DNA from: an uncultured Gemmiger sp.
GTDB lineage: Bacteria > Bacillota > Clostridia > Oscillospirales > Ruminococcaceae
DNA: 64,000 nucleotides
NCBI GenBank assembly: GCA_944388175.1
Contig: CALXHR010000008.1
Coordinates: 2,243 to 66,242 of the forward strand
Direction: 5' to 3'
Shown: piece after piece, positions 56,940 to 60,176 of the stretch
Position numbering within the stretch: the stretch's first letter is position 1
Layout of the letters: each line of letters begins with the position of its first letter
Translations under genes and position numbers: made by a program
Notes under the pieces: model-generated
The model's input: only the letters and a program-made list of their open reading frames with translations
The model's database searches: none
What the model was told of the DNA's origin: nothing

Positions 56940-59102
56940 ATGGAATATCCCGCACAGTCCCATCCTCCTCTGGCGCACATTTCGGCCGACGGCAAGCGCG
57001 CCCAAAGCGTCCGCGACCATCTGCTTGGCACAGCCGCCCTGGCAGAAACCTTTGCCCGCCCCTTTGGCGGGCAGGAGCAGGCATACCTGGCTGGGCTACT
57101 GCACGACATTGGCAAATACAGCGCCGCGTTCCAGCGGCGGCTGCGGGGCGGGCCCAAAGTCGACCACGCCACAGCCGGGGCCAAAGTCGCGTACGGGGCC
57201 CGGCAGCCGGAGGTTGCATTCGCCGTTGCCGGCCATCACGGCGGTCTGCCCGACGGCGGCGCACAGACCGACCCGGAAGGTGCGGGCACGCTTTTTGGCA
57301 GGCTGAAAAAGGAGACTCCACCGTGCGAGGGTTGGGAAAGTGAAATCCCCCTGCCTGCTGCCCATCGCCCGCCACTGCCGGGCGATGGGTTCGCCGCCAG
57401 CTTTTATACGCGGATGCTGTATTCCTGCCTGGTCGACGCCGACTATCTCGATACCGAAACCTTCATGAACGGCACGCCCGCGCCGCGCGGTGGCGGGGCG
57501 GCCCCGGACGAGCTATTGCAGCGCCTGCAAACATACATTGCCCCCTGGTGGAACGCCAAAAACGAGTTGAACCGCAAGCGGTGTGACATCCTGCGCGCCT
57601 GCCTGGATGCCGGCAAAAGCGCCACCCCCGGCCTGTTTGCATTGACGGTGCCCACTGGCGGTGGCAAAACAGTTTCCTCGCTGGCGTTTGCACTGGCCCA
57701 CGCGGCGGAAAAAGGGAAACAACGCGTCATCTATGTGATCCCCTATACCTCGATCATTGACCAGACCGCCGAGGTGTTCCGGGAAATATTGGGCGAAGAA
57801 AACGTTATAGAACACCATTCCGGCGCAGATTTTTCGATGCCGGAAGGCGAATTCGATCCGTGCCTTTACCGCAAAGCACTGGCAACCGAGAATTGGGACG
57901 CCCCCGTGATCGTCACGACCGCTGTGCAATTTTTTGAATCCCTGTTTGCCAACCGCGCGTCCCGCTGCCGCAAGCTGCACAACATTGCGGACAGCGTCGT
58001 CGTCTTTGATGAAGCGCAGACCCTGCCCGTGCCCTATCTGCGCCCCTGTGTAGCGGCCATTGGCCAGTTGGTGCAGTTCTACGGCGTCACCGCTGTTTTG
58101 TGCACGGCTACCCAGCCGGCCTTGCAGCCACTGTTCGACACGCTGACGCCGGGGCTGAAAATGCGGGAGATTTGCCCGGATACTGATACGCTGTACCGAT
58201 TTTTCCGCCGCACAAAGCTGCGACAGGCAGGTGAACTGACGGCAGAAGAAGTAACCGCGCAGCTCTGCGACGCCCCGCAGGCGTTGTGCGTTGTCAACCG
58301 GCGCGCTACCGCCCAGCAGCTGTATGCCGCCCTGCCGGCCGAGGGGCGCTACTGCCTGACAACGCTGCTCTGCCCCAGCGATCGCAAACGGCTGCTGAAA
58401 GAGATTCGCGCCCGTCTCCAGGACGGCCTGCCCTGCCGGGTGGTTTCGACCTCGCTGATTGAAGCCGGCGTAGATGTGGATTTCCCTGCTGTTTGGCGCG
58501 AGGAAGCCGGGCTGGATTCCATCTTGCAGACCGCCGGGCGCTGCAACCGCGAAGGGAAGCGCCCGGCCGAGGAAAGCATCGTTACAGTGTTCCGCCTGGC
58601 GGGGCAGCGCGCTCCTTCCATGATTGGCCAAAATGTCGACGCTGCCCGGCAGGCGTTCTCACTGTTTGAAGACCCCGCCACCCCGGCGGCCATCGAGCAT
58701 TACTTTTCGTTTTACCGCACACTAAAAGGGGACGCCGCCCTGGACAAACAGAATATCCTGCCTGCCTTTTGCAGAGGGCTGCAGGGACGTATTTTCCCCT
58801 TTGCTTCTGTAGCAGAAATGTTCCGGTTGATCGACAGTGATACCGTCACGGTCTACCTGCCCGTCGACGCCGGCGCCCCTCTTATTGATCGGCTGCGCCG
58901 CGGGGAAGTCAGCCGCACTCTGTTCCGGCAGTTGGGACAATTTACGGTCAACATTTACCCGGACCACTTGCAAAAATTATTGTCCGCCGGGGCACTCGAA
59001 GCTGTCGGCGACGGCATGTACATCCTCACCGATCTCCACCTGTATGACCGCGAGACGGGTCTTTCGCTGGATGTGGAGACGGGGCAGGGCTGGTTTGTCT
59101 AG
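56940..59102 (+). CDS. cas3: CRISPR-associated helicase/nuclease Cas3 (HD plus SF2)
   Basis: LHDIGK, GHHGGL, DAD, PTGGGKT, DEAQ, TAT, QTAGRCNR. Confidence 0.95.
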   Translation: MEYPAQSHPPLAHISADGKRAQSVRDHLLGTAALAETFARPFGGQEQAYLAGLLHDIGKYSAAFQRRLRGGPKVDHATAGAKVAYGARQPEVAFAVAGHHGGLPDGGAQTDPEGAGTLFGRLKKETPPCEGWESEIPLPAAHRPPLPGDGFAASFYTRMLYSCLVDADYLDTETFMNGTPAPRGGGAAPDELLQRLQTYIAPWWNAKNELNRKRCDILRACLDAGKSATPGLFALTVPTGGGKTVSSLAFALAHAAEKGKQRVIYVIPYTSIIDQTAEVFREILGEENVIEHHSGADFSMPEGEFDPCLYRKALATENWDAPVIVTTAVQFFESLFANRASRCRKLHNIADSVVVFDEAQTLPVPYLRPCVAAIGQLVQFYGVTAVLCTATQPALQPLFDTLTPGLKMREICPDTDTLYRFFRRTKLRQAGELTAEEVTAQLCDAPQALCVVNRRATAQQLYAALPAEGRYCLTTLLCPSDRKRLLKEIRARLQDGLPCRVVSTSLIEAGVDVDFPAVWREEAGLDSILQTAGRCNREGKRPAEESIVTVFRLAGQRAPSMIGQNVDAARQAFSLFEDPATPAAIEHYFSFYRTLKGDAALDKQNILPAFCRGLQGRIFPFASVAEMFRLIDSDTVTVYLPVDAGAPLIDRLRRGEVSRTLFRQLGQFTVNIYPDHLQKLLSAGALEAVGDGMYILTDLHLYDRETGLSLDVETGQGWFV

Positions 59103-59229
59103 GGTATATCGAAAAAACTCCCAGCACTGTCTAATTCAACTAAAAAAGCCGCGTCTGCTGCGTACCTCAACCTTGCATCCGCAACTTTTCAGCGAATTTT
59201 CCAGCACTTTGATTTATCAAATCCACCCT

Positions 59230-59314
59230 AAAAGAAAAGGGCGGCAAGTGGAACCCTTGCCGCCGCTTCTCTACAAACTACATCCAATATTTTCTACCCA
59301 CAGCATTTGCTGAC
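59230..59314 (-). ncRNA. Putative crRNA-like regulatory RNA (single degenerate I-C repeat, spacer, terminator)
   Basis: GTCAGC-AAAT-GCTG hairpin, TGGGTAGAAAA handle, TATTGGATGTAGTTTGTAGAGAAGC spacer, GGCGGCAAG/CTTGCCGCC stem, TTTTCTTTT. Confidence 0.75.
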
Positions 59315-59320
59315 ACCTGC

Positions 59321-59349
59321 ATTATACCCGGTCTGTAACATAATCGCAA
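59321..59349 (-). promoter_or_regulatory. sigmaA promoter of the crRNA-like RNA
   Basis: TTGCGA-N17-TATAAT; predicted +1 at about 59314, the first G of the repeat. Confidence 0.75.
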
Positions 59350-59440
59350 TATGGAAAACATCCAACCACGCAAAACAGACAAATTGAGCGGAGCATTTTA
59401 TGGCAAAACGCCAAACCCATCGCAGTTTCTTTGAGAAATG

Positions 59441-59469
59441 TTGCCTTTCCTGAAAGCGTGTGCTATTGT
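59441..59469 (+). promoter_or_regulatory. Promoter of the cas5-cas8c-cas7-cas4-cas1 operon
   Basis: TTGCCT-N17-TATTGT with TGn extended -10. Confidence 0.65.
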
Positions 59470-59483
59470 TACCTCGCAGGAAG

Positions 59484-59507
59484 CTTTACATATTACATTC
59501 AATAGAA
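59484..59507 (-). promoter_or_regulatory. PAM-flanked target of the crRNA-like RNA in the cas5 leader
   Basis: TTC PAM (59505-59507) plus TATTGAATGTAATATGTAAAG; 17/21 match to the spacer. Confidence 0.7.
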
Positions 59508-59525: not shown

Positions 59526-60176
59526 ATGCCTATGATCCAACTGGAAGTGTGGGGTCCCTATGCCCTGTTTTGCCGCCCTGAACTCAAAGTAGAGCGCGTT
59601 TCCTACGACGTTCCGACCCCTTCGGCGGCGCGGGGTCTTGTGGAAGCCCTTTATTTCCATCCCGGTTTGCGTTGGCACATCAGCAGAATTTACGTACTGA
59701 ACCCCATCCGTTTCGTCAGCGTTCGCCGTAACGAGGTCGCAAGCAAAATATCCGCGCGCAACGTTCGTCAGGCCGCGCAGGGGGGCGGGCAGCCGCTGTA
59801 TCTTGCTACACCGCAGGAGATCGTACAGCGCGCTTCCCTGCTTTTGCAGGACGTCCACTATGTGATCGAAGCGCATTTTACCATGACGGACAAAGCCGCC
59901 CCCAGCGACAACCCCGGCAAATTCCAGGACATCGTCACCCGCCGCATGGAACGGGGGCAGTGTTTCCACACACCATATTTCGGCTGCCGGGAGTTTCCTG
60001 CTGCTTTCCGGCGCTGGCCGGGCGGCCCCATCCCTGCCATCGACGAAACGCGCGACCTGGGGTTGATGCTGTACGGCTTTGACTACAGCGACCCACAAAA
60101 CATTACGCCGACCTTTTTCCGGGCCCGACTGGAACACGGCGTGCTGGACACGCAGAATTGCGAGGTGTTCCGATGA
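59526..60176 (+). CDS. cas5: Type I-C Cas5 (Cas5d)
   Basis: ALFCRPELKVERVSYDVPTPSAARG, RRNEV, PYFGCREF. Confidence 0.95.
   Translation: MPMIQLEVWGPYALFCRPELKVERVSYDVPTPSAARGLVEALYFHPGLRWHISRIYVLNPIRFVSVRRNEVASKISARNVRQAAQGGGQPLYLATPQEIVQRASLLLQDVHYVIEAHFTMTDKAAPSDNPGKFQDIVTRRMERGQCFHTPYFGCREFPAAFRRWPGGPIPAIDETRDLGLMLYGFDYSDPQNITPTFFRARLEHGVLDTQNCEVFR

What the first reader, a model, noticed from the sequence alone, without database searches (positions are those of the whole stretch)
59230..59507. Hidden crRNA-like small RNA that appears to guide type I-C Cascade to its own operon leader (autorepression circuit)
Seen in sequence: on the minus strand of the cas3-cas5 gap, a TTGCGA-N17-TATAAT promoter (59349-59321) starts a transcript at about 59314. 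It reads GTCAGC-AAAT-GCTG (hairpin), TGGGTAGAAAA (11 nt), a 25-nt segment TATTGGATGTAGTTTGTAGAGAAGC (59289-59265), then a 9-bp terminator stem and U-tract. The 25-nt segment matches the minus strand at 59504-59484 (TATTGAATGTAATATGTAAAG) at 17 of 21 positions. The match starts exactly at the first base after the 11-nt handle and directly follows a 5'-TTC. Mismatches fall at positions 6, 12, 14 and 19. The RNA's own locus has AAA rather than TTC at the PAM position. The target lies just downstream of the predicted cas5-operon promoter (59441-59469). Established: I-C repeats run GTC-hairpin-GTGGAT(T/A)GAAA-like; Cas5d cuts 3' of the hairpin leaving an 11-nt 5' handle; the I-C PAM is TTC; every sixth crRNA base is flipped out by Cas7 and need not pair; partial R-loops allow binding without Cas3 cleavage; CreA/CreR crRNA-like RNAs repress promoters this way in other type I systems. 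Inference: this is a one-repeat, terminator-ended CreR-like regulator. Cascade would repress cas5-cas8c-cas7-cas4-cas1, and repression would lift when Cascade is titrated by crRNAs or anti-CRISPRs. Array finders would miss it.
Basis: partly seen in the sequence, partly recalled or inferred. Interest (0 to 1): 0.9.

Follow-up and report, generated by a model that had tools for sequence, protein, structure and literature searches.

The report
Guide RNA that self-limits CRISPR Cascade
Between two CRISPR genes of a gut bacterium lies a conserved, degenerate one-repeat guide gene whose sequence matches the front end of the neighbouring CRISPR genes, so it likely lets the CRISPR complex turn down its own production, a known kind of switch, here with its target predicted to lie just after the transcription start rather than before it.

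Summary
The pseudo-repeat keeps the GTC-hairpin anatomy and 9 of 11 handle bases of the genome's real array repeat, and the cas5 leader is the guide's best non-self match in the assembly. Of 37 cas3-cas5 gaps holding such a handle (window included), 33 have their best guide match behind TTC (shuffles 4.6%), mismatched mainly at positions 6, 12 and beyond 17; guide follows target in 43 of 49 differences. It is very likely a CreR-type crRNA-like RNA for Cascade autorepression. The kind is published: type I-C single-repeat crlRNAs were tested in the CRISIS preprint, I-C creR-like elements were listed earlier, and this scan noted two similar cases on other DNA. Differences: no cargo gene; the target lies downstream of the predicted start (+6 to +32 in 20 of 33 mapped loci) instead of 37-46 bp upstream; two small cas-free replicons carry matching guides (candidate anti-CRISPR mimics). 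Expression, processing and repression are untested; the mature RNA is probably about 49 nt, not 70.

The parts
59321..59349 (-). predicted sigma-70 promoter of the small RNA (TTGCGA-17-TATAAT)
   Evidence: -35 TTG and -10 TATAAT are invariant islands in 8 aligned loci; the -10 box ends 5-12 nt before the GTC in most homologues
59301..59314 (-). 5' part of the pseudo-repeat: GT + 4-bp hairpin closed by C3-G, as in the array repeat
   Evidence: anchored stem of 4 bp or more in 33 of 35 loci vs 4.7% (237 of 5016) of control positions, with compensatory pair types
59290..59300 (-). 11-nt 5' handle left after predicted Cas5c cleavage at 59301/59300
   Evidence: 9 of 11 identical to the array repeat's last 11 nt; handle position 6 (A or T) agrees with the own array in 23 of 24 loci
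59265..59289 (-). pseudo-spacer (guide); pairing region nt 1-17, up to 21
59230..59264 (-). 3' hairpin and U-rich tail (intrinsic-terminator-like); loop is nt 46-52 counted from the handle
   Evidence: z -3.5; 98.6% of cells paired in 8 loci, little covariation
59441..59469 (+). predicted promoter of cas5-cas8c-cas7-cas4-cas1-cas2 (TTGCCT-17-TATTGT, extended TG); predicted start about 59476
   Evidence: own weighting, not a validated predictor; 4 of 4 other strains read TTGACT at the -35 box (59444 C>A)
59484..59504 (-). target (protospacer), +9 to +29 of the predicted cas5 transcript; the guide would pair with the coding strand
   Evidence: conserved island
59505..59507 (-). TTC PAM
   Evidence: TTC in 33 of 37 loci found without asking for a PAM
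56940..59102 (+). cas3 (HD nuclease + helicase), open 720 aa, outside the predicted regulated unit
59532..60176 (+). cas5c, first gene of the predicted regulated operon and predicted processing nuclease
   Evidence: TIGR01876
60173..64000 (+). cas8c, cas7, cas4, start of cas1c; a cas2-like gene and a 15-17-repeat array follow beyond the window (C8 about 67280-68400)
   Evidence: cas2 read from the sequence, not scanned

Best explanation
The element is a single degenerate type I-C repeat, a short guide and a terminator-like hairpin, and it likely makes a CreR-type crRNA-like RNA that brings Cascade to the start of the cas5 operon and represses it. Inferred steps: the minus-strand promoter gives a transcript from about 59314; Cas5c cuts below the 4-bp hairpin, leaving the 11-nt handle; Cas7/Cas8c load a roughly 49-nt RNA whose 3' end lies in the hairpin loop; the complex reads TTC at 59507-59505 and opens a partial R-loop of about 17 nt (three 5-nt segments; natural spacers are 34-36 nt), too short to license Cas3; bound over +9 to +32 it overlaps the place RNA polymerase needs for initiation and escape, so cas5-cas2 transcription falls. 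Repression would ease when array crRNAs compete for Cas proteins or anti-CRISPR proteins block Cascade. Shown here: anatomy, conservation, covariation. Not shown: transcription, cleavage, binding, repression.
For: Handle 9/11 like the real repeat and same C3-G anchored hairpin. PAM-blind search of each gap: TTC in 33 of 37 loci, 32 of 37 score 13 or more of 17; shuffled guides give TTC in 4.6% and 13 or more in 5.1% of 1110 trials. Among the 33: mismatches 0,0,0,0,1 at positions 1-5, 30 at 6, 0-3 at 7-11, 28 at 12, 0-2 at 13-15, 22-30 from 18 on. Own target 13.9 vs foreign targets 7.5 of 15. In 13 disjoint pairs of loci the guide follows the target in 43 of 49 differences. Still 22 of 24 TTC after thinning to under 80% Cas5 identity. 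Reverse test: a handle-plus-guide pattern without cas information gave 19 metagenome hits, 16 directly upstream of cas5 with a TTC (15) or TTT (1) target. Out-of-sample: 3 of 90 phylum-wide cas5c loci carry the element, all with TTC and mismatches at 6 and 12. Hairpin loop covers nt 48-50 in 23 of 34 loci, median centre 49, the size sequenced for I-C crlRNAs. Twelve homologues have the published geometry, -40 to -48. Published I-C crlRNAs of this anatomy repress promoters 4.8- to 60-fold.
Against: No RNA evidence: four RNA-labelled runs held only relatives and none covered 59270-59470 (uninformative). Start sites are my own predictions. RNA polymerase would meet the PAM-distal side, which is the leaky side for dCas9 and dCas12a (abstract of PMC9758054), so an elongation roadblock is unlikely to be strong and repression must rest on overlap with initiation. 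The 4-bp stem is half the array's 8 bp, and the minimum-energy fold of the whole transcript does not show it. Read-through from cas3 could bypass the promoter; the hairpin has only a weak T-run on the plus strand. Loci are related, so counts overstate independence; the nearest Cas5 relative (L001, 95%) lacks the element, and decayed copies exist (L011, L015, L034).
Confidence: 0.86

Rival explanations
1. The RNA acts as an antisense RNA on the cas5 mRNA leader (with or without Cas proteins) and lowers translation or stability rather than transcription.
For: The guide is complementary to the predicted 5' leader; duplex -22.5 kcal/mol, and three of the four DNA mismatches would be G-U pairs. Wobble-compatible mismatches are 8 of 35 in the downstream class vs 1 of 20 in the upstream class.
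Against: RNA pairing needs no PAM and gives no 6-nt period, yet both are kept; 27 of 35 mismatches in the downstream class are not wobble-compatible; in 12 homologues the target lies upstream of the predicted start and would not be transcribed; the duplex ends about 12 nt before the ribosome-binding site.
Confidence: 0.04
2. The family is real but this copy is silent or decaying (weak hairpin, weakened -35 of the cas5 promoter), so nothing is regulated in this strain.
For: Decayed copies occur in relatives (L011, L015, L034); many close relatives have lost the whole gap (29 loci with a cas3-cas5 gap under 100 nt); no transcript seen.
Against: All parts are intact here; among four other strains the only changes inside the RNA gene were at guide position 12 and in the hairpin loop, both predicted free; the same 4-bp hairpin is the commonest form in the family.
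Confidence: 0.05
3. The RNA is a decoy that soaks up Cas5c/Cas7 (a host-encoded Racr-like sponge), and DNA targeting is secondary.
For: Viral contigs carry solitary repeats with the same short hairpin and handle but no recognisable target (20 loci); RacrIC1 inhibits type I-C (PMC10651486).
Against: A decoy needs no covarying, PAM-flanked target; 43 of 49 matched changes say that pairing is under selection.
Confidence: 0.02
4. The RNA is an antitoxin (CreA): the repressed leader or a nearby locus encodes a hidden small RNA or peptide toxin that makes the cell addicted to Cascade.
For: CreTA and CRISIS loci use the same kind of RNA; one homologue has a HicA/HicB-like pair inserted in the gap (L035). 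Tiny RNA toxins are hard to see.
Against: The predicted leader is only 50-56 nt; the one RBS-led ORF in the window's gap (17 aa) is not seen in the other gaps examined; no second TTC-flanked site above 11/15 in the assembly (69% complete). In L035 the TA pair points away from cas5 and is not downstream of the target.
Confidence: 0.02
5. Chance: an AT-rich direct repeat next to the cas3 terminator.
For: Promoter and terminator motifs alone are at chance level; the gap is AT-rich in a GC-rich genome.
Confidence: 0.01

Closest known systems
Type I-C solitary-repeat crlRNAs of CRISIS loci (Nezha, sole-Sir2 and others; bioRxiv 10.1101/2024.12.27.630466; read: abstract, passages, sections 5, 7, 9; figures and supplements not seen)
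   Same: Subtype I-C; between cas3 and cas5c; one pseudo-repeat cut below a hairpin; 11-nt handle; 3' hairpin with loop at nt 48-50; TTC or TTA PAM; mismatches at 6, 12 and PAM-distal.
   Different: No defence gene between target and cas5; the target is downstream of the predicted start (+29 for guide nt 1) rather than 37-46 bp upstream; host group is gut Oscillospiraceae-like, not mainly Neisseria.
CreR RNAs (bioRxiv 10.1101/2023.03.10.532045; read: passages and section 8; Fig. S7 with the I-C examples not seen)
   Same: Toxin-free degenerate mini-CRISPR aimed at the promoter of the effector operon; autorepression relieved by crRNAs and Acr proteins.
   Different: Tested for I-B, I-E and V-A only; I-C elements were only listed after a manual search; the tested I-E CreR has two pseudo-repeats and a target about 140 bp upstream of casA.
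V-A CreR and viral Cracr RNAs (bioRxiv 10.1101/2024.10.29.618823; read: passages and section 7; Tables S1-S2 not seen)
   Same: One pseudo-repeat + guide + Rho-independent terminator; mobile elements carry copies aimed at host cas promoters, incl. I-C and plasmids.
   Different: Cas12a, not Cascade, in the single-repeat example; named I-C examples are Neisseria arrays; 'Faecalibacterium' does not occur in the main text.
Regulatory mini-arrays and SRUs (Shmakov et al., PMC10120712; read: passages and Table 1)
   Same: In the gap after cas3, transcribed opposite to cas3, PAM-flanked partial target in the cas promoter region.
   Different: Two repeats in their mini-arrays; 7% of I-C loci; their 16-bp match threshold would miss this element (best local match 10 of 11 nt).
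Racr solitary repeat units, RacrIC1 (PMC10651486; passages read)
   Same: Solitary I-C repeat mimic.
   Different: Racrs sit on mobile elements and have no promoter target; this one is chromosomal, in the cas locus, with a covarying target.

Membership tests
CreR / regulatory crlRNA | degenerate repeat that keeps the handle of the cognate CRISPR repeat | tested here: met
   9 of 11; hairpin anchored as in the repeat
CreR / regulatory crlRNA | guide partly complementary to the cas promoter region, next to the subtype's PAM | tested here: met
   PAM not derived from this system's own protospacers (searches found none)
CreR / regulatory crlRNA | own locus lacks the PAM and pairing is too short for cleavage | tested here: met
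   AAA at the PAM place; about 17-21 nt vs 34-36-nt spacers; absence of cleavage itself is inferred
CreR / regulatory crlRNA | transcribed and processed by the cognate Cas nuclease | not testable with these tools
   only assembled contigs of relatives were available
CreR / regulatory crlRNA | Cascade-dependent repression of the cas promoter | not testable with these tools
   needs a reporter or knock-out
CreR / regulatory crlRNA | no coupled toxin gene (CreR rather than CreA) | tested here: inconclusive
   no conserved ORF in the gap; an RNA toxin cannot be excluded
CRISIS (I-C crlRNA supervising a defence gene) | non-cas defence gene between target and repeat unit | tested here: not met
CRISIS (I-C crlRNA supervising a defence gene) | target 37-46 bp upstream of the start site | tested here: not met
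   predicted +9 to +29 here; 12 homologues do have -40 to -48; start sites predicted only
CRISIS (I-C crlRNA supervising a defence gene) | 3' hairpin whose loop falls at nt 48-50 | tested here: met
   loop nt 46-52; 23 of 34 loci
CreTA toxin-antitoxin | toxin gene under the repressed promoter | tested here: not met
   leader of 50-56 nt runs straight into cas5
Two-repeat regulatory mini-array | second repeat after the guide | tested here: not met
   a terminator-like hairpin unrelated to the repeat follows
Racr | on a mobile element, without a PAM-flanked target | tested here: not met
   lies in the cas locus with a target

The most novel reading that the evidence does not exclude
Gut Oscillospiraceae-type I-C systems run a cargo-free Cascade feedback loop with a geometry not described in the texts I read: a three-segment (17-nt) guide clamps Cascade on the first 30 transcribed bases of its own operon, PAM-distal side toward the polymerase, while sister lineages park it just upstream of -35; and small cas-free plasmid-like replicons have copied the same guides to silence the host's I-C operon.
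Probability: 0.5. Interest if true: 0.6.

Novelty: new variant of a known kind. Interest (0 to 1): 0.45.

Why it matters
It extends RNA-guided Cas autorepression to a cargo-free type I-C case in common gut bacteria, with natural covariation that stands in for a compensatory-mutation experiment. It shows that repeat-similarity pipelines undercount these elements (35 of 81 loci in this Cas5 neighbourhood vs 7% of I-C loci reported, though only 3 of 90 phylum-wide). Two target geometries in one family give a ready test of where and in which orientation a short-guide Cascade represses, useful for CRISPRi with intact Cas3. Candidate plasmid mimics point to a counter-defence route. The principle itself is not new.

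Tried and rejected
Rfam: only chance hits far below gathering scores. RNA evidence: runs X15, X18, X19, X20 are contigs of roughly 90%-identical relatives, none covers the element; no conclusion. Phage mimics of this guide: handle-plus-guide patterns in viral contigs gave 4 hits, none with the hairpin or cas genes, and the two whose ORFs I listed lie inside long coding frames, then 0 and 0 hits; hairpin-plus-handle patterns gave 20 viral solitary repeats whose guides match none of my host targets (8 of 15 at best). PLSDB holds no relative of the L206 element. Own PAM from protospacers: arrays of L019, L002 and the window's genome found no protospacer in the phage collection. A regulatory repeat upstream of cas3 in loci with a short gap: none found (only true arrays and one handle-like hit without a TTC target). 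Self-priming: no array spacer has more than a short chance match in the genome. Cas5 tree: only the quick tree finished; the two target geometries are partly clustered (upstream class 7 changes vs 11.4 shuffled; downstream class not significant) but support is too low to order events. Selection against pairing at positions 6 and 12: 3 of 31 matches vs about 10 expected at position 6 (p about 0.002-0.005), fading to p 0.03 and 0.1 on stricter thinning, weaker at 12, and one strain has a matching base at 12; left open. First terminator pair count was misregistered and redone; the 8 close loci show pairing but too little variation for covariation (122 of 500 shuffles as high). Rows dropped: 32 of 81 loci had under 100 nt of gap or upstream DNA; 12 of the other 49 had no usable handle (one, L029, truncated); 4 of 37 were left out of the promoter map by score or strand (L034, L038, L062, L079); L038 and L062 were left out of the 35-locus set. 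Literature searches for a Faecalibacterium/Oscillospiraceae I-C case or a downstream target found none in main texts; unseen supplements (Fig. S7 of the CreR preprint, Tables S1-S2 of the Cracr preprint, Supplementary Data 1 of the CRISIS preprint, Shmakov's files) may list such elements.

Full report
Observation. Both strands were read. The minus strand carries TTGCGA-17-TATAAT (59349-59321), then seven bases after the -10 box GTCAGC-AAAT-GCTG (59314-59301), an 11-nt segment (59300-59290), 25 nt (59289-59265), a 9-bp hairpin (59264-59240) and a U-rich tail. The 25-nt segment matches 59504-59484 at 17 of 21 positions behind TTC, with mismatches at 6, 12, 14 and 19. The genes around are a complete type I-C set: cas3, cas5c, cas8c, cas7, cas4, cas1c. 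Near-identical DNA occurs in chicken gut metagenomes of several studies, and the closest Cas5 proteins come from Gemmiger, Subdoligranulum, Agathobaculum and Faecalibacterium genomes.

Pseudo-repeat against the true repeat. The array lies beyond the window (C8 about 67280-68400). Its 33-nt repeat starts with GTC, folds an 8-bp stem closed by C3-G, and ends in an 11-nt tail; the element has the same plan with a 4-bp stem and 9 of 11 tail bases identical. Spacers are 34-36 nt.

Chance. On 15 pairing positions the cas5 leader scores 14; the next best sites in the assembly score 12 and lack TTC (genome 69% complete).

Comparative test. I fetched 80 cas5 homologue loci. With the window, 32 of 81 have under 100 nt of gap or upstream DNA; 49 were examined and 37 hold a handle-like motif with 20 nt or more behind it. 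Searching each gap on both strands for the best match to guide nt 1-17, without asking for a PAM and without skipping positions, gave TTC in 33 of 37 (plus one TTT and one TTA); shuffled guides gave TTC in 4.6% of 1110 trials. Mismatches among the 33 concentrate at position 6 (30), 12 (28) and from 18 on (22-30), with at most 3 at any other position up to 15. Guides match their own target at 13.9 of 15 and foreign ones at 7.5. In 13 disjoint pairs, 43 of 49 target differences are mirrored in the guide; L033 and L035, 99% identical in Cas5, differ at five pairing positions and both keep all five (whole-cassette exchange could produce this too). The pseudo-repeat hairpin is 4 bp or more in 33 of 35 loci (control 4.7%), with several pair types per position, and handle position 6 follows the locus's own array repeat in 23 of 24. 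Relatedness inflates these counts, but 22 of 24 and 10 of 11 loci still show TTC after thinning to under 80% and 70% Cas5 identity (that set was already limited to TTC/TTT/TTA loci). Two further tests: a metagenome scan with a handle-plus-guide pattern gave 19 hits, 16 directly upstream of cas5 with a PAM-flanked target (many near-identical strains); and of 90 cas5c loci taken from a phylum-wide search in which 114 of 401 genomes matched, 79 have a short gap and 3 carry the element with TTC and mismatches at 6 and 12. So the element is common in this Cas5 neighbourhood and rare elsewhere in the phylum, and it is lost often: the nearest relative L001 lacks it.

Geometry. With a simple promoter score of my own, the cas5 promoter is at 59441-59469 and the start near 59476; four other strains carry TTGACT at the -35 box. 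Of 33 mapped loci, 20 (window included) have guide position 1 at +6 to +32, 12 have it at -40 to -48, and one could not be placed. The second class equals the published I-C geometry (start 37-46 bp downstream of the target). In the first class the guide pairs with the coding strand and the PAM-distal end faces the promoter. For dCas9 and dCas12a that side lets polymerase read through (PMC9758054, abstract), so I infer interference with initiation or escape rather than a firm roadblock; a type I-C CRISPRi guide binding the coding strand over a -10 box gave about 10-fold repression in Neisseria (PMC10865793, passages). The 3' hairpin's loop covers nt 48-50 in 23 of 34 loci, and the stem often extends back to guide nt 16-19, where complementarity ends.

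Mechanism. Shown: anatomy, conservation, covariation. Taken from papers: Cas5c cleavage below the hairpin, 11-nt handle, 48-50-nt products ending in the loop of a 3' hairpin, repression restored by compensatory mutation (10.1101/2024.12.27.630466); TTY PAM reading and Cas3 recruitment to the full 35-nt R-loop (10.1101/2023.08.05.552134, passages); relief by crRNA excess and Acr proteins in I-B, I-E and V-A (10.1101/2023.03.10.532045). Inferred for this locus: all functional steps. No transcript could be checked. I put Cascade-guided autorepression at 0.86; antisense action, a silent copy, a decoy, a hidden toxin and chance share the rest.

Mobile mimics. Three of the 19 metagenome hits (two distinct, on contigs of 4.7-6.4 kb, of which I hold 2.4 kb each) have no cas gene in the DNA held and no own target, yet carry a promoter-like -10 box, a 32-nt pseudo-repeat with hairpin, a guide and a later terminator-like hairpin. 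L206 encodes a Rep_1 rolling-circle replication protein; L209 has a weak DnaD-like/replication-initiator hit and iteron-like repeats. L206's guide differs from the L008 host target only at 6 and 12 within nt 1-17; L209's guide does the same against the L204 target (read). The guide letters were constrained by my pattern, but the hairpin, promoter and terminator were not. They fit the Cracr class, for which plasmid-borne and I-C candidates are published; untested.

Comparison and verdict. It works like CreR and has the anatomy of the tested CRISIS I-C crlRNAs, but it is not a CRISIS locus (no cargo, different target position), nor CreTA, a two-repeat mini-array or a Racr. I-C creR-like elements were listed in a supplement I could not see, and this scan noted two similar I-C cases in other genomes, which I did not check. 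I file it as a new variant of a known kind on the strength of the downstream target geometry, which rests on predicted start sites; without that it is a new member.

Noticed in passing
L206:1180-1290 (+), L209:1180-1290 (+), L213 (same as L209): Solitary I-C pseudo-repeat + guide + terminator on small cas-free replicons (Rep_1 in L206); guides fit the cas5-leader targets of Faecalibacterium-type loci: candidate plasmid Cracr RNAs.
   Followed up: partly
L085-L104 (viral contigs): 20 cas-free viral loci with a short-hairpin I-C solitary repeat; in about half it is followed within 5-20 nt by a motif that I recall as the core of the type V-A repeat, and several have a second I-C-like repeat just upstream: tandem Racr-like units against two CRISPR types.
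   Followed up: partly
window 59100-59215: A stretch starting at the cas3 stop codon is multi-copy in gut metagenome contigs (depth peaks at 59113-59146 and 59171-59210) and has two weak copies in the genome; possibly a small mobile or repeated element that lengthens this gap to 423 nt.
   Followed up: partly
L035, cas3-cas5 gap (954 nt): A HicA (PF07927) gene and a HicB-like ORF are inserted between the cas5 promoter and the guide gene, pointing away from cas5.
   Followed up: partly
L111, cas3-cas5 gap (767 nt): Element whose target lies about 617 nt upstream of cas5, in front of what looks like a broken cargo ORF: a CRISIS-like layout with a decayed cargo; the cargo was not identified.
   Followed up: no
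L011, L015, L034 gaps: Decaying copies: promoter and terminator kept while handle or guide has drifted, or promoter region deleted.
   Followed up: no
guide position 6 across 33 loci: Mismatched in 30 of 33, more often than a free position would be; significance fades on thinning. Could reflect selection against long direct repeats or against full pairing.
   Followed up: partly
L008, L012, L036, L068 pseudo-repeats: The hairpin loop tolerates insertions of 10-50 nt, in L008 a near-complete array-repeat hairpin, in L068 a partial duplication of the handle.
   Followed up: no
L071, L079 (Acetobacter): Related solitary repeats with TTC targets in other orientations in a different phylum.
   Followed up: no
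window 59253, 59278, 59444: Strain differences fall in the terminator loop, at guide position 12 and in the cas5 -35 box.
   Followed up: yes
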